A DNA stretch of 7,379 bases from the IMG/VR virus record IMGVR_UViG_3300028969_000089. One strand, given 5' to 3'. Below are positions 1 through 7,379 of this stretch, piece by piece. This DNA comes from a virus. Taxonomy: Duplodnaviria > Heunggongvirae > Uroviricota > Caudoviricetes. Positions within the stretch are counted from its first letter, which is position 1, and each line of letters opens with the position of its first letter. The position numbers and the translations under genes are program-made. The notes beneath the pieces were generated by a model. That model worked only from the letters and a program-made list of their open reading frames with translations. It ran no database searches and was not told where the DNA came from.

Positions 1-82
1 AAATGTGGCCTGGCTGCACTCTGAAGTCACCGCATGGATGGCCGGGCGCATTGCCGGACGCAAACGGGGGTACGACGCATGA
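1..82 (+). CDS. 3' end of Vis/AlpA-family small DNA-binding regulator (5' truncated by window edge)
   Basis: Aligns base-for-base with 6744..6825, the 3' end of the complete 88-aa ORF 6559..6825. Reading frame ends at stop TGA 80..82, encoding ...[26 protein letters not shown]. Confidence 0.6.
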
Positions 83-117
83 TGATGCCCGCTCTGCAAA
101 AACTCCCTTTTTCTGGC

Positions 118-147
118 TTGCCTTTTTCCGGCATTTGCGGATATAGT
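118..147 (+). promoter_or_regulatory. Sigma70-like promoter, candidate early promoter of the left operon (P4 PLE equivalent)
   Basis: TTGCCT (118..123), 18-nt spacer, TATAGT (142..147), directly downstream of the vis stop. Identical hexamers at 6861..6866 and 6885..6890 in copy B. Confidence 0.4.
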
Positions 148-210
148 TTTTCCGCTGTCGCAAAATCGGCAGCCGGGCGTGAGAACCCGAGCAATTCACA
201 GGCGACATAT

Positions 211-232
211 GACGCGCCACGCGTCTTTTTTT
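211..232 (+). terminator. Intrinsic terminator-like hairpin in the leader
   Basis: GACGCG (211..216), loop CCA, CGCGTC (220..225), then seven T (226..232). Copy B keeps a GACGC/GCGTC stem plus T7 at 6954..6975. Confidence 0.45.
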
Positions 233-390
233 GTGTCGCAATCAATGCCACAGAGCGCCAGATTATGGTGTGGTGTGTGGTCAGTCGTGCAGATGGCATT
301 CCGTGCATCCTGCCCGCGTCCGCTCATTATGCCGCAGAGTCAATGGTAGCTCAGGCGGGGCAGCCTCCGGGCTGGCCGGTATCCTGTGAA

Positions 391-452
391 GCCGGTATTC
401 TCACCCCCGTCTGGGCTATCGCCATCGAGCGTGAGAACTCCGGCGATAGCGT
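391..452 (+). ncRNA. Candidate CI-like immunity RNA core (62-nt block identical in both repeat copies)
   Basis: The 62 nt at 391..452 are identical to 7125..7186 while the 10 nt immediately upstream and the sequence downstream differ. Contains a 9-bp stem GCTATCGCC (415..423) / GGCGATAGC (442..450) with an 18-nt loop exposing GTGAGAAC (431..438), and an upstream TTCTCAC (398..404) complementary to GTGAGAA. Confidence 0.35.
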
Positions 453-480
453 TATTTGCTATTCACAGGAGGCTGCCATC

Positions 481-678
481 ATGGCTACAACCCTTACCCC
501 CTCACACCCTGAATTTGTCTTTGTGTTTGCGGCTGTCCGTCGCGCAGACCGTCATCCCCGTATCTGTATGCTTCGCACCGTCGCCGGTGATGAACGCAGT
601 GCCCGCCGTTCCCTTGTCCGTGACTATGTGCTCTCCCTTGCTGCCCGTCTGCCGGTGGTGGAGGTGTCCCGTGCGTAA
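481..678 (+). CDS. Small conserved protein (65 aa) downstream of the CI-like block; function unknown (Kil/Eps position of a P4-type left operon)
   Basis: ATG 481 preceded by AGGAGG (467..472) with an 8-nt spacer. Copy B (7215..7379) differs at only three positions across the 55 aligned codons, all synonymous third-base changes (ACA/ACG, CCC/CCT, TGT/TGC). Confidence 0.55.
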
Positions 679-1044: not shown

Positions 1045-1088
1045 GTGTCTACCATTGTCCGAGGATATCCAGCTAAATCCAGTGATTA

Positions 1089-1140
1089 TTGGTATACGTT
1101 TAGGTATACGGTAGGATGTATACCTAAACGCGTATACCAA
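1089..1140. promoter_or_regulatory. Imperfect 21-bp inverted repeat with four GGTATAC/GTATACC heptamers upstream of int; candidate integrase or regulator binding region
   Basis: Left arm TTGGTATACGTTTAGGTATAC (1089..1109) and right arm GTATACCTAAACGCGTATACCAA (1118..1140) are reverse complements apart from one inserted base, separated by 8 bp, ending 20 bp before the int start. Confidence 0.4.
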
Positions 1141-1160
1141 TTCATGAAGGAGCGGCCACA

Positions 1161-2399: not shown

Positions 2400-3758
2400 A
2401 TGCCAAATAACTACCATCAATACATCGAAGACGTTAGTGATGATATAAAGACATGTCTTGAAGGAATGGGATGCCAACCCATACTTTTTGTTGGATCGGG
2501 ATTAACCAAGAGATATCTTTCTGGCCCAAACTGGGAAGAACTTCTTCAGCAACTTGCTAATGAATGTCCTAACATCGATAAAAGATTTGCCTATTATAAA
2601 CAGAAATACCCCGAGTTGATTGATATCGGCAGTGTATTTTCTGATTCTTATAACGAGTGGGCATGGGGTGATGGAGAGAAAGAATTTCCAGCAGAGTTAT
2701 TTGATGCAGGCAATGAGCCAAGTATTTATTTTAAATACAAAGTATCTAGTATTTTCAACTCATTGTTACAAGAAAAAGAAATCGTAAACAACGGTGAAAT
2801 TGAACTTCTGAGAAAGATTCACCCTCATTCAATCATCACAACAAATTACGACAAATTACTTGAATCGATATATCCTGAGTTTACCCCCATTATAGGCCAA
2901 AAAATCCTTTACGCTAATCACGGTAGCATTGGTGAAATACTTAAAATACATGGTTGCTGCTCCACTCCTGAAAGCATAATAATAAACCGCGATGACTACG
3001 ATGACTTCATAAAGAAGAAGAAATATTTAAGCGCAAAACTGCTTACTTTCTTTGCTGAACACCCTCTTCTATTTATAGGTTACAGCGCAGAAGACTCGAA
3101 CATAAAAAACATACTATCTGATATTGATGAACTACTTTCAGAAAATGGAGATGTCATTCCAAATATATACATTTTAGAATGGACGAGCAAACAAAATGAA
3201 AGTGAATACCCACGCCGTGAACGGCTGATTCAAGTATCTGCAAACAAAAGCATTAGAATAAAAAGTATAGTAGCAAATGACTTCTCTTGGGTATTTTCAG
3301 CGTTTGGCGCGAACAGAGCACTTGATAACATAAATCCCAAATTATTGAGGGCACTTTTAGCTCGCACTTACGATCTCGTCAGAACTGATATACCTCGCAA
3401 TCCTGTCCAAGTTGATTACCGAGTTTTATCAAGCATTAGCGAGTCAGAAGGTGAATTAGCGAAATTATATGGTATCGCCACATCGTCAGATGGTATGGCA
3501 TTTAATGCCAGTTATCCTTTTACTTTAACCACGCTAGGGCAATCACTTGGTTTCAAAGGCTGGCATGATGCGAACAAACTATTAGAAGTAGTTAAAAACA
3601 TCACGAACGTAGACATCAAGACATTCGATAACAAATACCACTATGCAATAATGAACGGTGATGAGATTCAGTCCCATAGATATTCAAACTATCTTCGAGA
3701 ACTCCTCGAAAAGGTTAGGGATGGAGAGGAGTTTGAGTTAGGAATAAAGGCTCCATAA
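2400..3758 (+). CDS. SIR2-like (SIR2_2-type) putative NAD+-hydrolase, candidate standalone antiphage defence protein with an uncharacterised C-terminal domain
   Basis: 452-aa ORF with AAGGAG at 2388..2393. Motifs read directly: ILFVGSGLTKRYLSGPNWEELL (Gly-rich NAD pocket), ITTNYD (Asn149, codon 2844..2846), KIHG (His184, codon 2949..2951), LFIGYSAED. Gene is markedly AT-rich against GC-rich flanks and starts 25 bp after the int stop. Confidence 0.8.
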   Translation: MPNNYHQYIEDVSDDIKTCLEGMGCQPILFVGSGLTKRYLSGPNWEELLQQLANECPNIDKRFAYYKQKYPELIDIGSVFSDSYNEWAWGDGEKEFPAELFDAGNEPSIYFKYKVSSIFNSLLQEKEIVNNGEIELLRKIHPHSIITTNYDKLLESIYPEFTPIIGQKILYANHGSIGEILKIHGCCSTPESIIINRDDYDDFIKKKKYLSAKLLTFFAEHPLLFIGYSAEDSNIKNILSDIDELLSENGDVIPNIYILEWTSKQNESEYPRRERLIQVSANKSIRIKSIVANDFSWVFSAFGANRALDNINPKLLRALLARTYDLVRTDIPRNPVQVDYRVLSSISESEGELAKLYGIATSSDGMAFNASYPFTLTTLGQSLGFKGWHDANKLLEVVKNITNVDIKTFDNKYHYAIMNGDEIQSHRYSNYLRELLEKVRDGEEFELGIKAP

Positions 3759-4128: not shown

Positions 4129-4701
4129 TTACACAGACTGACGTGATGCCAGTTGCGCACTTTTACGCGAAAAAATCATGTTCTGCGCAGGGGTGAATTT
4201 TTCACGGCTGTCATCCACCGAAGCCGCGTCAGGCCTGAATCCGATGGCCGTTAAAATGTCGCTATCCTGTGCGGAATAATTAATTTTTTCCCCCTTCGCA
4301 AGCCAGGACAGAAGGGCTTCACGCAGGGCATCTGTGGCACGCTGTATGGCACAGTTTCGGGCAATGACCGTCAGCTCACTGTAGCCCATCAGCTCCGGTG
4401 CCAGTGCCGCCGCCAGTGCTGTGCCGTGCTGCTGCATAAAATCATTCAGCCGGTCGCGGATGCTGATGTGCTGAACGGCTTCATGCGAACGAATATAACG
4501 ACCGGCGGCCTGATTCACCTGCCATTTTCTGACTTCGATAATATTGCGTAATTCGTCCAAGCGACTGACGTTTCTGCCTTCTCCTGACAGAAGCCGCAGA
4601 TATTCCTGTTCGGCCGCAGCCAGCTCATTTTTGCGTTGCAGCCATGCTGCTTTGTTATTCTGACAGGTGTCAAAGGCCTGCTGTAAGGCTGTGCTTTCCA
4701 T
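4129..4701 (-). CDS. psu: Polarity suppression protein Psu (P4 capsid decoration / Rho antagonist)
   Basis: 190-aa ORF whose sequence (MESTALQQAFDTCQNNKAAWLQRKNELAAAEQEY...) matches my recollection of P4 Psu in length and sequence. Last gene of the sid-delta-psu late operon. Confidence 0.85.
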   Translation of the reverse strand: MESTALQQAFDTCQNNKAAWLQRKNELAAAEQEYLRLLSGEGRNVSRLDELRNIIEVRKWQVNQAAGRYIRSHEAVQHISIRDRLNDFMQQHGTALAAALAPELMGYSELTVIARNCAIQRATDALREALLSWLAKGEKINYSAQDSDILTAIGFRPDAASVDDSREKFTPAQNMIFSRKSAQLASRQSV

Positions 4702-4774: not shown

Positions 4775-5275
4775 TCATTCCAGACGCAGCGAATATGATT
4801 GTGTTTTTAACCGTACTGGCGGCAGTTCCTGTTTTTCATGCAGGCGTTCTGCCAGTTCGTCCGGTGTGACCGGGCGGACAATGAAGCGGTTGATGGTCTG
4901 AAGCGTTTTAAACACCAGACCACATCCCGGATCCGTGCACACATAAAAACGCTCGGTGACTTCCTGAGACAGACGCCGCGATGTTCTTGACAGTGCAAGG
5001 CCTTTACATCTCCGACAACAATATCCGGTAACAAGCATTCTTTTCGGGCGTTTCATACTGCCGGAGGCTGACGTCAGTGAATCGCGGTATCTCTGTTTGC
5101 CTGAAATGTATTCCATTCCTGAATCTTTACAGTCAGAGAAAAAGCTTTCACTCGCTTCAAATGTCGCAGAGCAATAAATATTCCGGCACTGTGCAATCAT
5201 TATCTTGGTGCCATCGTCCATGAAATGTGCGCGACGGGTGTGAGCAACATGTCCACACGACGGGCAGTAAATCAT
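4775..5275 (-). CDS. delta: Delta, Ogr/Delta-family zinc-finger late transcription activator
   Basis: 166 aa, the length of P4 Delta. Two Ogr-like halves each with Cys pairs (CPSC...CRNIYC and CCRRC...CTDPGC). Start overlaps the sid stop in an ATGA junction at 5272..5275. Confidence 0.85.
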   Translation of the reverse strand: MIYCPSCGHVAHTRRAHFMDDGTKIMIAQCRNIYCSATFEASESFFSDCKDSGMEYISGKQRYRDSLTSASGSMKRPKRMLVTGYCCRRCKGLALSRTSRRLSQEVTERFYVCTDPGCGLVFKTLQTINRFIVRPVTPDELAERLHEKQELPPVRLKTQSYSLRLE

Positions 5276-6006
5276 GACAGCAGTCCTCTGGCCTTAAGCT
5301 CTGCTCCCTGCTGGTCTATTTTGTCCTGCCACACCTTGCGCTGTGCCGGTGTGCCTGCCACCTCATAATCCATGTGCGGGAGTGTTGCCGCTGACAGTCC
5401 GGTCAGCCGGAGAACCGGCTCGCCGGTGAGGCTGATTTGCATCTGTTTAATTTTCTGTTCCAGCGATGATTTCACCTGCTGCATGACAGCCTTTTCCGGT
5501 GCGACGTAGCCCTGATGGCCGGTGGTGTTGGCGAGCGGATTTTCCTGTACCAGGATACTCAGATGCATTGCCCGGACAAGCGCCTCACAGGTTTCATTTA
5601 GGGCGTGTTCCAGCTCATGCTCTGCATACAGACTCAGAAGGTGATGATGTGCCTTCCGGTAGGCGGTGGCCGTGCTGTCACACGCCCCTTTCAGGCGTTC
5701 ACGTTCGAAATTCAGCACCACGGCCAGATTGTCATATTCCTGTACCAGCTCCCGGCGTGCCACGCGCTCAATGTGGCGCTGTTTCAGCTCGTCGCTCAGG
5801 ACACCACCGGCTGCACGAAAGGCCGTGCGCCAGTCGTCAGCGTCGTTTCCGTCGGCCTGCGCCAGCGCATTTTTTTCCTGCTCTGCCCGTTCAATGGCCG
5901 TGATGGTCTCATCCATCAGGCGGGCGTTCTCAAGATGAGCGGCTCTGGCCTTTTCCAGTTGTGCCAGCGCGGGTTGCAGATATTCAGGGATGGTGTTGTC
6001 AGACAT
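5272..6006 (-). CDS. sid: Sid, external scaffold / capsid size determination protein
   Basis: The ORF track extends to 6072, but the ATG at 6004..6006 (MSDNTIPEYL...) has a GGAG 6 nt upstream and gives 244 aa, matching P4 Sid as I recall it. The upstream ATG would overlap the predicted promoter dyads. Confidence 0.8.
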   Translation of the reverse strand: MSDNTIPEYLQPALAQLEKARAAHLENARLMDETITAIERAEQEKNALAQADGNDADDWRTAFRAAGGVLSDELKQRHIERVARRELVQEYDNLAVVLNFERERLKGACDSTATAYRKAHHHLLSLYAEHELEHALNETCEALVRAMHLSILVQENPLANTTGHQGYVAPEKAVMQQVKSSLEQKIKQMQISLTGEPVLRLTGLSAATLPHMDYEVAGTPAQRKVWQDKIDQQGAELKARGLLS

Positions 6007-6040
6007 TTTCCGGCTCCTCGTCACTTCAGGTTGAGAAAAT

Positions 6041-6096
6041 TGTGACGTACACCGGACAACAACACGACGCATTGCAGATGTGCCAGCCCTGACACA
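6041..6096 (-). promoter_or_regulatory. Candidate Psid late promoter with two Ogr/Delta-type TGT-N12-ACA dyads
   Basis: Dyads TGT-N12-ACA at 6041..6058 and 6079..6096, centres 38 bp apart. If the distal dyad is at -55 the start site falls near 6032, about 26 nt upstream of the sid ATG, and the proximal dyad near -17. Confidence 0.5.
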
Positions 6097-6175
6097 GGAG
6101 ACTCATCCTCAGACCGGCAAGCCAGGAAAAGGTCGCAGGAAAAACCGGCTTACTGTTTGTTTTTTTATATTTTAC

Positions 6176-6279
6176 TGTTCACCTCTGTTCACCATAAGAA
6201 AAAAGATAAGTAATACAGTAAGTTAAATGGTGAACAATCGCAGTAATGACTGTTCACCGTCTGTTCACCACTGTTCACC
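6176..6279. repeat. Iteron array: six TGTTCACC octamers (ori/crr-like replication element)
   Basis: Octamers at 6176, 6186, 6251, 6262, 6272 (direct) and 6229..6236 (inverted). Adjacent direct copies are spaced 10 to 11 bp, with an AT-rich stretch between the clusters. TGTTCACC is the repeat I recall as the P4 alpha-protein binding site in ori and crr. Confidence 0.55.
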
Positions 6280-6382
6280 CGCTCATGGACTTTTTGTGCT
6301 GTTTACTACTGTTTGTTTTTATTAATTCGCCGGGAATGAATAAGAAGAAACGATTTGTATTTCACTATAAAAATTACGAATT

Positions 6383-6412
6383 GCTTTAAGTGGCTTTAAA
6401 TGACTTTAAGTG
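6383..6412. repeat. Three tandem 10-bp repeats upstream of vis
   Basis: GCTTTAAGTG (6383..6392), GCTTTAAATG (6393..6402), ACTTTAAGTG (6403..6412): head-to-tail and helically phased. Confidence 0.4.
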
Positions 6413-6438
6413 GGAATGAACAAAAAACACACAGTCAT

Positions 6439-6456
6439 TGTAAGGCGGCCGGAACA
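6439..6456 (+). promoter_or_regulatory. Candidate activator dyad for the rightward late promoter upstream of vis (PLL equivalent)
   Basis: TGT (6439..6441), 12 nt, ACA (6454..6456). Placing it at -55 puts the start site near 6502, about 57 nt upstream of the vis ATG. No convincing -10 hexamer was identified. Confidence 0.25.
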
Positions 6457-6558
6457 AATCCCCCCTGTTGCGTCTGCCAAAAAGATTCACAAAATAAAGC
6501 GCTACCCGAAGCCGGACGGACTTATCCGGTGCTGTATGGACATTAACGAGGTAGCCCG

Positions 6559-6825
6559 ATGCAAGCTGTTTTTTCTTCCCCGTCTCCCTCCCCTGTGACG
6601 CCACTGATGCCGCTGCCGGACATCACGCAGGAGCGTTTTTTACGTCTGCCGGAAGTGATGCACCTGTGCGGCCTGTCACGTTCGACCATCTATGAACTCA
6701 TCCGTAAGGGGGAATTTCCGCCGCAGGTGAGTCTTGGCGGTAAAAATGTGGCCTGGCTGCACTCTGAAGTCACCGCATGGATGGCCGGGCGCATTGCCGG
6801 ACGCAAACGGGGGTACGACGCATGA
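6559..6825 (+). CDS. vis: Vis/AlpA-family small DNA-binding regulator / excisionase-like protein
   Basis: 88-aa ORF with an AlpA-type helix-turn-helix core ([43 protein letters not shown]). Position between the late promoter region and the early promoter matches P4 vis as I recall it. Confidence 0.75.
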
Positions 6826-6860
6826 TGATGCCTGTTCTGCAAAAACTCCCTTTTTCTGGC

Positions 6861-6890
6861 TTGCCTTTTTCCGGCATTTGCGGATATAGT
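6861..6890 (+). promoter_or_regulatory. Sigma70-like promoter, copy B of the candidate early promoter
   Basis: TTGCCT (6861..6866), 18-nt spacer, TATAGT (6885..6890); identical to copy A. Confidence 0.4.
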
Positions 6891-6953
6891 TTTTCCGTTG
6901 CCGCAAAATCGGCAGCCGGGCGTGAGAACCCGAGTATGTTATCGGCGACATAT

Positions 6954-6975
6954 GACGCGCCATGCGTCTTTTTTT
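6954..6975 (+). terminator. Leader hairpin plus T7, copy B
   Basis: GACGC (6954..6958) / GCGTC (6964..6968) with a 5-nt loop, then seven T (6969..6975). Confidence 0.4.
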
Positions 6976-7124
6976 GTGTCGCAATCAACGCCACAGAGCA
7001 CCAGATTATGGTGTGGCGTGTGGTTTGCCGTGCAGGTATGATCCTGTTCGCAATCGCATGTTATGCCTCTGAGTCAATGGTAGCTCAGGCGGGGCAGCCT
7101 CCGGGCTGGCCGGTTTCCGATAAC

Positions 7125-7186
7125 GCCGGTATTCTCACCCCCGTCTGGGCTATCGCCATCGAGCGTGAGAACTCCGGCGATAGCGT
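7125..7186 (+). ncRNA. Candidate CI-like immunity RNA core, copy B
   Basis: 62 nt identical to 391..452, flanked by diverged sequence. Confidence 0.35.
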
Positions 7187-7214
7187 CATTTACGCTGTTA
7201 TCGGAGGTTGCCTT

Positions 7215-7379
7215 ATGGCTACGACCCTTACCCCTTCACACCCTGAATTTGTCTTTGTGTTTGCGGCTGTCCGTCGCGCAGACCGTCATCCCCGTATCTG
7301 CATGCTTCGCACCGTCGCCGGTGATGAACGCAGTGCCCGCCGTTCCCTTGTCCGTGACTATGTGCTCTCCCTTGCTGCC
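7215..7379 (+). CDS. Small conserved protein, copy B (3' truncated by window end)
   Basis: ATG 7215 preceded by GGAGG. The 55 codons visible differ from 481..645 only at three synonymous sites. Confidence 0.5.

What the first reader, a model, noticed from the sequence alone, without database searches (positions are those of the whole stretch)
6383..6456. Three tandem 10-bp repeats and a further TGT-N12-ACA dyad upstream of vis
GCTTTAAGTG / GCTTTAAATG / ACTTTAAGTG form a head-to-tail, helically phased triplet (6383..6412), followed by a TGT-N12-ACA dyad (6439..6456) about 110 bp before the vis ATG. These could be the rightward late promoter with an auxiliary binding array (Vis autoregulation or a host factor). 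Neither is explained by coding sequence.
Basis: inference. Interest (0 to 1): 0.4.

Follow-up and report, generated by a model that had tools for sequence, protein, structure and literature searches.

The report
Helper-phage Cox boxes upstream of P4 late promoter
The three 10-bp repeats are the known binding boxes through which helper phage P2's Cox protein switches on the late promoter of satellite phage P4, and the nearby dyad is that promoter's known activator site, so the finding is real but already described.

Summary
The window is a P4-like satellite prophage. Its sid-vis intergenic region is 98% identical to phage P4.

The triplet (6383-6412) is identical to the three repeats that the P4 GenBank record labels 'ori type 2 repeat'. 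Read on the minus strand, it gives TTAAAGTCA, TTAAAGCCA and TTAAAGCAA at 10-bp spacing. These fit the published P2 Cox-box consensus TTAAA(G/C)NC(A/C). [quoted passage not shown]

The TGT-N12-ACA dyad (6439-6456) fits the Ogr/Delta activator site of PLL. It would lie near -55 of an inferred start at about 6503.

The proposed ligands, Vis or a host factor, are not supported: related satellites with an invariant Vis helix-turn-helix carry quite different arrays, and E. coli alone holds several array types.

One unplanned result may be new. In relatives the same slot holds other phased repeat arrays. Some match phage 186 Apl operators (TTGCCA) and some match the Wphi C-cox intergenic DNA. This suggests a swappable module that recognises the helper phage. 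I found no description of this in the searchable literature.

The parts
6381..6409 (-). Three strong P2-type Cox boxes at 10-bp spacing: TTAAAGTCA (6409-6401), TTAAAGCCA (6399-6391) and TTAAAGCAA (6389-6381). They point away from PLL.
   Evidence: Pattern scan gives 8/8, 8/8 and 7/8 specified positions. They are identical to P4 9176-9205, which is annotated 'ori type 2 repeat'. The consensus, the 10-11 bp spacing and binding upstream of PLL come from PMC3936717 and PMC5009727.
6362..6370 (-). Candidate weak Cox box TTATAGTGA (6 of 8), about two helical turns beyond the third strong box.
   Evidence: This is inference only. Published footprints span at least 70 nt with at least 6 boxes.
6412..6420 (-). 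Candidate weak Cox box TTCATTCCC (5 of 8), 11 bp before the first strong box.
   Evidence: Inference only.
6439..6456 (.). TGT-N12-ACA dyad (TGTAAGGCGGCCGGAACA), taken to be the Delta/Ogr activator site of PLL.
   Evidence: The TGT and ACA arms are kept while 3 spacer bases differ from P4. The consensus is cited in PMC3931495. The activator sites annotated in the P2 record are centred 55-58 nt from the annotated start sites.
6466..6503 (+). Inferred PLL core promoter: a weak -35-like TTGCGT (6468-6473), a -10-like CAAAAT/AAAATA (6490-6496), and a start near 6503.
   Evidence: This block is conserved across 38 related loci. No sigma-70 consensus promoter is present, as expected for an activator-dependent promoter. 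The start is inferred from the dyad geometry. It lies about 394 nt upstream of the PLE transcript, which is marked by the isrK and c4-a1b1 hits at 6884-6897.
6503..6558 (+). Conserved vis leader with a hairpin (CCGGA 6512-6516 pairing with TCCGG 6525-6529) and a Shine-Dalgarno GAGG (6548-6551).
   Evidence: Read directly from the sequence. Nearly invariant across relatives.
6559..6825 (+). vis (AlpA-family excisionase and regulator, 88 aa), the first gene of the PLL transcript.
   Evidence: Pfam PF05930, E = 7e-21. Corresponds to P4 ORF88.
6176..6279 (.). P4-type ori1: six type I iterons TGTTCACC at 6176-6183, 6186-6193, 6229-6236 (inverted), 6251-6258, 6262-6269 and 6272-6279.
6041..6096 (-). 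Two further TGT-N12-ACA dyads (6041-6058 and 6079-6096), 38 bp apart, upstream of sid. These are taken to be the Psid activator sites.
   Evidence: The outer dyad is conserved at about -465 to -500 from vis in most relatives.
4775..5275 (-). delta, the Ogr/Delta zinc-finger activator expected to bind the dyads.
   Evidence: Pfam PF04606, E = 7e-22, two zinc-finger stretches.

Best explanation
The interval is the upstream control region of the P4-type late promoter PLL, and it integrates two inputs.

1. **Helper-sensing array.** Three phased Cox boxes lie at about -122 to -94 from the inferred start. When a P2-type helper phage expresses its excisionase/repressor Cox, Cox binds the boxes cooperatively, one protomer per helical turn. 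It is proposed to extend as a filament away from the promoter and to wrap the DNA. This activates PLL and so turns on vis and the downstream replication genes of the repressed satellite.

2. **Late activator site.** The TGT-N12-ACA dyad is centred near -55. It is the site for the zinc-finger activators: the satellite's own Delta or the helper's Ogr. These drive PLL late in infection, in the same way as at Psid and the P2 late promoters.

**Shown here:** sequence identity with P4, the match to the Cox-box consensus, the phasing, the orientation, and the dyad geometry.

**Taken from the literature:** Cox binding and PLL activation.

**Inferred:** the exact transcription start, the weak flanking boxes, and the mechanism of activation.
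For: - The sid-vis intergenic region is 98% identical to P4, and the triplet is identical.
- The P4 record annotates these exact decamers.
- The P2 record describes Cox as an activator of a P4 promoter, written 'P11' in the record, which I take to mean PLL.
- PMC3936717 and PMC5009727 give the consensus TTAAA(G/C)NC(A/C), boxes 10-11 bp apart, a binding site upstream of PLL, and boxes facing away from the -10/-35.
- The window has only three exact matches to that consensus. Two are adjacent here, and a one-mismatch box follows in phase.
- The array shares 8-mers with P2's own Cox sites (18 observed against 4.5 expected). It does not do so with Wphi or 186 operator DNA.
- All three TGT-N12-ACA dyads of the window lie in this intergenic region.
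- The activator sites annotated in P2 sit 55-58 nt from the start sites. The same spacing places the PLL start at about 6503, behind a conserved -10-like block.
- That start is about 394 nt upstream of the PLE transcript marked by Rfam hits. This fits my recollection that PLL lies about 400 nt upstream of PLE.
- delta is encoded in the element.
Against: - I could not read the primary footprinting papers (Saha et al. 1989; Julien and Calendar 1995; Polo et al. 1996). The assignment of these particular boxes and of the start site rests on consensus matching, on secondary sources, and on my own recollection.
- Only three boxes are strong, whereas published Cox footprints contain at least six. The flanking candidates score 5-6 of 8.
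- The GenBank record calls the repeats origin elements, so a replication role is not excluded.
- Vis is reported (from memory) to repress PLL, and I could not locate its site.
Confidence: 0.88

Rival explanations
1. The triplet is an origin element (a type II iteron) needed for alpha-dependent replication from ori1, not a transcriptional element.
For: The P4 record annotates the repeats as 'ori type 2 repeat' inside the rep_origin feature. They lie about 100 bp from the six type I iterons.
Against: Type I iterons (TGTTCACC) are kept in most relatives, while the type II slot changes completely. The variants match operators of helper-phage proteins rather than one another. From memory, and unverified here, Tocchetti et al. 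1999 limited the minimal ori1 to 123 bp containing the six type I iterons and an AT-rich stretch, and alpha binds only type I iterons.
Confidence: 0.07
2. The triplet is a Vis operator. Vis, an excisionase-type protein, would bind the helically phased direct repeats to autoregulate PLL.
For: Recombination directionality factors typically bind direct repeats spaced one helical turn apart (PMC7498355). Vis is both such a factor and a regulator of P4 late promoters. Three adjacent sites is the minimum reported for efficient binding by the related factor Apl.
Against: The Vis helix-turn-helix ([21 protein letters not shown]) is invariant across about 38 loci whose arrays differ, and identical Vis proteins sit next to different arrays. 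L054 and L055 differ from the window's Vis by one residue yet have a different triplet. No copy of the repeat occurs in the P4 int-attP region, where Vis boxes are reported. There is also no significant shared motif between that region and PLL (11 observed against 7.2 expected).
Confidence: 0.04
3. The triplet binds a host architectural protein, or is only bent AT-rich DNA with no specific ligand.
For: The region is AT-rich and phased. Activator-dependent promoters often use upstream bends.
Against: Within E. coli alone, 441 genomes carry this array and 247 carry a different one in an otherwise about 90% identical backbone. Others carry TTGCCA arrays. A single host factor would not explain this. 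The units are sequence-specific matches to helper operators.
Confidence: 0.02

Closest known systems
Cox-binding region upstream of PLL in satellite phage P4 (Saha, Haggard-Ljungquist and Nordstrom 1989, as cited in PMC3936717)
   Same: The DNA is essentially the same: 98% identical across the intergenic region, with identical boxes. Position and orientation relative to PLL and vis are also the same.
   Different: There are three substitutions in the dyad spacer and a few elsewhere. This element sits at ssrA with a different integrase, and it carries a SIR2 gene instead of P4's gop-beta-cII.
P2 Cox boxes at the P2 Pe-Pc switch and at attP
   Same: They share the 9-bp consensus and the 10-11 bp phasing, with cooperative filament-like binding.
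   Different: In P2 the boxes overlap Pc and repress it, or they organise the excision complex. Here they lie upstream of the promoter and face away from it, and the reported outcome is activation.
P2/P4 late promoters dependent on Ogr or Delta (PP, PO, PV, PF, Psid)
   Same: They share a TGT-N12-ACA-type dyad about 55 nt upstream of the start, a poor -35, and a zinc-finger activator.
   Different: PLL additionally carries the Cox array upstream. It transcribes regulatory and replication genes rather than morphogenetic genes.
Phage 186 Apl operators (TTGCCA hexamers at pR-pL and attP)
   Same: They have the same architecture: direct repeats one helical turn apart, bound by a helper-encoded excisionase/repressor.
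   Different: The recognition sequence differs, and the window's array does not match it. Arrays of this type occur in the same slot of other P4-like satellites.

Membership tests
P2 Cox-box array (Cox-responsive element of P4 PLL) | Units match TTAAA(G/C)NC(A/C) | tested here: met
   The three units match 8/8, 8/8 and 7/8 specified positions at 6409-6381 on the minus strand.
P2 Cox-box array (Cox-responsive element of P4 PLL) | Boxes are direct repeats, 10-11 bp from start to start | tested here: met
   Spacing is 10 and 10 bp.
P2 Cox-box array (Cox-responsive element of P4 PLL) | At least about six boxes within a footprint of at least 70 nt | tested here: inconclusive
   There are three strong boxes and only weak in-phase candidates (5-6 of 8) at 6362-6370, 6412-6420 and 6435-6443.
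P2 Cox-box array (Cox-responsive element of P4 PLL) | Located upstream of PLL with boxes facing away from the -10/-35 | tested here: met
   The boxes are on the minus strand, about 94-122 nt upstream of the inferred start at about 6503.
P2 Cox-box array (Cox-responsive element of P4 PLL) | Cox binds the array and activates transcription | not testable with these tools
   This is reported for P4 in the literature. The DNA here is identical across the boxes.
Ogr/Delta-dependent late promoter | TGT-N12-ACA-type dyad | tested here: met
   Dyad at 6439-6456.
Ogr/Delta-dependent late promoter | Dyad centred about 55 nt upstream of the transcription start | tested here: inconclusive
   The start was not mapped here. 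The P2 spacing places it at about 6503, behind a conserved -10-like block and about 394 nt upstream of the PLE transcript.
Ogr/Delta-dependent late promoter | A cognate zinc-finger activator is encoded by the element or its helper | tested here: met
   delta at 4775-5275, PF04606.
Ogr/Delta-dependent late promoter | No good sigma-70 -35/-10 pair (activator dependence) | tested here: met
   No promoter-like site was found in 6000-6600.
P4 ori1 type II repeats | Identity with the repeats annotated in the P4 record | tested here: met
P4 ori1 type II repeats | Required in cis for replication | not testable with these tools
   From memory, the minimal ori1 excludes them (Tocchetti et al. 1999). The paper is not held in the library.
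Vis (AlpA-family) operator | Site sequence covaries with the Vis recognition helix, or is conserved where Vis is conserved | tested here: not met
   The helix-turn-helix is invariant while the arrays differ.
Vis (AlpA-family) operator | Related sites occur in the int-attP region where Vis boxes are reported | tested here: not met
   No cluster was found in P4 3927-4077, and the shared-motif count is not above shuffles. The test is weak because such sites are degenerate.

The most novel reading that the evidence does not exclude
The 30-60 bp slot just upstream of the PLL activator dyad may be an exchangeable helper-recognition module. Each P4-like lineage would carry there a phased array that copies the operator of the excisionase/repressor (Cox or Apl) of the helper phage it exploits.

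**Array types seen so far**
- P2-type boxes: this window, P4, and 441 E. coli genomes.
- A CCCTT-type triplet resembling Wphi C-cox intergenic DNA: 247 E. coli genomes and a Kosakonia element.
- TTGCCA arrays resembling 186 Apl operators: most other Enterobacterales elements and some E. coli.
- At least three arrays with no known match.

**Prediction.** The array would determine which helper can wake the satellite. Satellites with the CCCTT type should respond to Wphi-type Cox, which is reported not to activate P4.
Probability: 0.5. Interest if true: 0.55.

Novelty: already known. Interest (0 to 1): 0.2.

Why it matters
For this window the result is an annotation. The repeats and the dyad are the helper-responsive (Cox) and late-activator (Delta/Ogr) inputs of the promoter that reactivates a dormant satellite prophage. 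They are not a new element. This corrects the 'Vis or host factor' reading and reconciles the old 'ori type 2 repeat' label with a transcriptional role.

The comparative by-product could matter more. If the array is a swappable copy of the helper's own operator, it offers a sequence-level predictor of which helper phage induces which satellite. That question is left open by genome surveys of P4-like elements. The large survey I checked (PMC8628076) does not mention Cox at all.

Tried and rejected
**Vis as the ligand.** Rejected on lack of covariation. Also, no related sites are found near P4 attP.

**Host factor.** Rejected because several array types coexist in E. coli.

**Coding explanation.** Mechanical ORFs overlap the interval (6386-6604 minus strand, 6400-6546 and 6410-6598 plus strand). 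None is annotated in P4, and the region is not conserved as coding sequence in relatives.

**Locating the Vis site.** A shared-motif search between the P4 int-attP region and PLL gave 11 matches against 7.2 expected, which is not significant.

**Exact dyad in relatives.** An exact TGT-N12-ACA is absent at PLL in relatives whose Vis is about 70% identical. On alignment they carry a form like P2 pV, TGT-N12-CAA, at the same position. I therefore do not count the absence as evidence against function.

**Literature.**
- Primary P4 papers (Tocchetti 1999, Julien and Calendar 1995, Saha 1989, Lindqvist 1993, Christie and Dokland 2012, Christie and Calendar 2016) are not held in the library.
- Two searches returned nothing.
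- One was swamped by unrelated uses of 'PLL'.
- Two searches and two paper-reading look-ups failed on the three-character term limit.

**Degenerate Wphi pattern.** The pattern CCYTTMTWR with one mismatch was too permissive to classify arrays. I replaced it with the 8-mer cross-matrix.

Full report
**1. What the window is**

Pfam assignments and BLAST show a P4-like satellite prophage:
- integrase, 1161-2372
- a SIR2-domain gene in the variable hotspot, 2400-3758
- psu, 4129-4701 (minus strand)
- delta, 4775-5275 (minus strand)
- sid, 5272-6006 (minus strand)
- an AlpA-family vis, 6559-6825 (plus strand)

The sid-vis stretch is present in 1026-1068 of 5426 complete E. coli genomes. Window 5900-6900 is 97% identical to phage P4. 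The intergenic alignment is 98% identical.

**2.

The three decamers are at 6383-6412. A triple decamer this similar never arose in 1000 composition-matched resamples.

The dyad TGTAAGGCGGCCGGAACA is at 6439-6456. The bare pattern is expected about twice per window. However, all three occurrences lie within the 486-bp intergenic region.

**3. Identity of the triplet**

The P4 GenBank record annotates exactly these decamers (P4 9176-9205) as three 'ori type 2 repeats'. They sit next to six 'ori type 1 repeats' (TGTTCACC), which are also all present in the window at 6176-6279.

On the minus strand the triplet reads TTAAAGTCA-T-TTAAAGCCA-C-TTAAAGCAA. Two papers on the P2 Cox protein state the following (PMC3936717; PMC5009727):
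- The Cox-box consensus is TTAAA(G/C)NC(A/C).
- Boxes recur every 10-11 bases, one protomer per helical turn.
- Derepression of P4 lysogens needs P2 cox.
- The Cox site lies upstream of P4 PLL.
- The boxes there face away from the -10/-35, so Cox filament growth leaves the promoter free.

The P2 record itself describes Cox as an activator of a P4 promoter, written 'P11' in the record, which I take to mean PLL.

The window contains only three exact matches to the consensus. Two are adjacent here, and a one-mismatch box follows in phase. Weaker in-phase candidates flank them. This would be compatible with the published footprint of at least 70 nt, but it remains inference.

The array shares 8-mers with P2's own Cox sites (18 observed against 4.5 expected). 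It does not do so with Wphi or 186 operator DNA.

**4. Identity of the dyad**

TGT-N12-ACA is the consensus of the Ogr-dependent P2 late promoters (PMC3931495). In the P2 record the annotated activator sites are centred 55-58 nt from the annotated start sites. Laid out at the same scale, the PO site occupies the same positions as the window dyad if PLL starts at about 6503.

Four further points support that start:
- It lies behind a -10-like CAAAAT/AAAATA and a weak -35-like TTGCGT, inside a block that is almost invariant across 38 related loci.
- No sigma-70 consensus promoter exists in the region, as expected for an activator-dependent promoter.
- Rfam places the PLE transcript (isrK, c4-a1b1) at 6884-6897. 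The inferred PLL start is therefore about 394 nt upstream, matching my recollection that PLL lies about 400 nt upstream of PLE.
- Compared with P4, the three substitutions inside the dyad all fall in the N12 spacer.

The other two dyads (6041-6058 and 6079-6096) are 38 bp apart, upstream of sid. This fits my recollection that Delta binds at -55 and -18 of Psid.

**5.

I fetched 42 loci encoding Vis relatives from other Enterobacterales and aligned the vis-upstream regions.
- The core promoter and leader are conserved.
- A dyad is kept at the same place, often in the form seen at P2 pV (TGT-N12-CAA).
- The slot occupied by the triplet always holds some array of 3-5 direct repeats with a 10-11 bp period.
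- The repeat sequences differ between lineages.

Vis cannot explain this. Its helix-turn-helix is invariant. L021, L027 and L028 have identical Vis, and L022 differs by one residue, yet they carry three different arrays. The E. coli elements L054 and L055 share a backbone about 90-92% identical to the window and differ in Vis by one residue. In them the triplet is replaced by TCCTTCAGAA / CCCTTTGAGA / CCCTTCCAGT.

The repeat also has no counterpart in the P4 int-attP region, where Vis boxes are reported. A host factor is unlikely because E. coli alone carries several array types.

**6. An unplanned result**

The annotated Apl sites of phage 186 are TTGCCA-type hexamers every 10-11 bp (PMC7498355). 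Most non-P4 relatives carry TTTGCCA, GGCCA or TTACCA arrays in the slot. Apl-type hexamers number 3-8 there against about 0.7 in a control stretch of the same length. In most of those loci three or more of the hexamers are in helical phase.

A cross-comparison of arrays with helper operator DNA gave a nearly diagonal matrix:

| Array | Matches | z |
|---|---|---|
| Window | P2 Cox sites only | 4.7 |
| L054 and L015 | Wphi C-cox intergenic region only | 5.4 and 7.2 |
| L053, L052, L021, L038, L032 | 186 Apl sites only | 6.5 to 13.6 |
| L051 | P2 and Wphi (mixed) | 3.5 and 2.8 |
| L022, L039, L006 | none of the three | - |

The L054 matches concentrate on and beside one copy of a 12-nt direct repeat in Wphi, CCTAGAA(A/G)GGAC. 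That repeat is my candidate for the '12-nucleotide direct repeat' that Wphi Cox is said to recognise.

There are caveats:
- Repeated units inflate the z-scores. The off-diagonal values are the real control.
- The Wphi repeat assignment is mine.
- The box spacing differs: about 20 bp in Wphi against 10 bp in the satellites.

Among 5426 E. coli genomes, 441 carry the window-type array and 247 the CCCTT type. Wphi Cox is reported not to activate P4. That is the behaviour expected if the array sets helper specificity.

I found no description of this pattern in the searchable literature. The library lacks most of the older P4 and P2 papers.

**7. Verdict**

- The array's ligand is the helper's Cox, not Vis or a host factor.
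- The features themselves are already known from P4.
- The lineage-specific array swapping is a lead worth following separately.

Noticed in passing
L005-L044 (about 235-125 nt upstream of vis); L051-L055: In related P4-like satellites, the slot that holds the Cox boxes here holds other phased 10-11 bp arrays. TTGCCA-type arrays match phage 186 Apl operators. CCCTT-type arrays match Wphi C-cox intergenic DNA. Three types have no known match: GGATGTGCGA in L022 and L042, TTGCAC in L039, and GCTTCTAAAG in L006. In E. coli the swap occurs within an otherwise about 90% identical backbone.
   Followed up: partly
window 1-645 versus 6744-7379; att core near 962-978: The left end of the window is 93% identical to the region right of vis, with second copies of the isrK (154-231) and C4 (339-426) RNAs, an Ash-family ORF and a Derepression-family ORF. 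A copy of the ssrA 3' end (CCCCAGCTCCACCA) follows, and then the integrase. No alpha gene lies between the Derepression ORF and the att copy. This suggests two P4-like elements, or an element plus a remnant, in tandem at ssrA. In other E. coli genomes the intact ssrA gene abuts this integrase.
   Followed up: partly
window 2400-3758 (+): A 452-aa SIR2_2-domain protein occupies the variable hotspot between int and psu, where P4 has gop-beta-cII. It is probably an anti-phage defence gene.
   Followed up: no
window 1078-1142: A long imperfect palindrome built from GGTATAC units (TTGGTATACGTTTAGGTATAC...GTATACCTAAACGCGTATACCAA) lies immediately upstream of the integrase start. It may be an arm-type or operator site for Int or Vis.
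   Followed up: no
window 6503-6558: The vis leader, including a CCGGA/TCCGG hairpin (6512-6529), is almost invariant across about 38 loci whose upstream arrays differ. Vis is equally invariant and is reported to repress PLL and to bind RNA. This conserved block, together with the core promoter, is therefore a better candidate for the Vis target than the repeats.
   Followed up: no
window 6041-6058 and 6079-6096: Two more TGT-N12-ACA dyads lie 38 bp apart upstream of sid. They fit the two Delta sites recalled for Psid. The outer one is conserved as TGTGGCA-N4-TGGCACA in most relatives.
   Followed up: partly
window 5272-6072 (-): The mechanical ORF for sid (266 aa) is longer than the sid annotated in P4 (244 aa). 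The P4 start maps to 6006. The extra 22 codons would run into the Psid region and are probably not translated.
   Followed up: no
window 6884-7160: Rfam finds the P4 immunity RNAs downstream of vis: c4-a1b1 targets (6884-6936), isrK (6897-6974) and C4 antisense RNA (7073-7160). These mark the PLE transcript and the CI RNA of this element.
   Followed up: no
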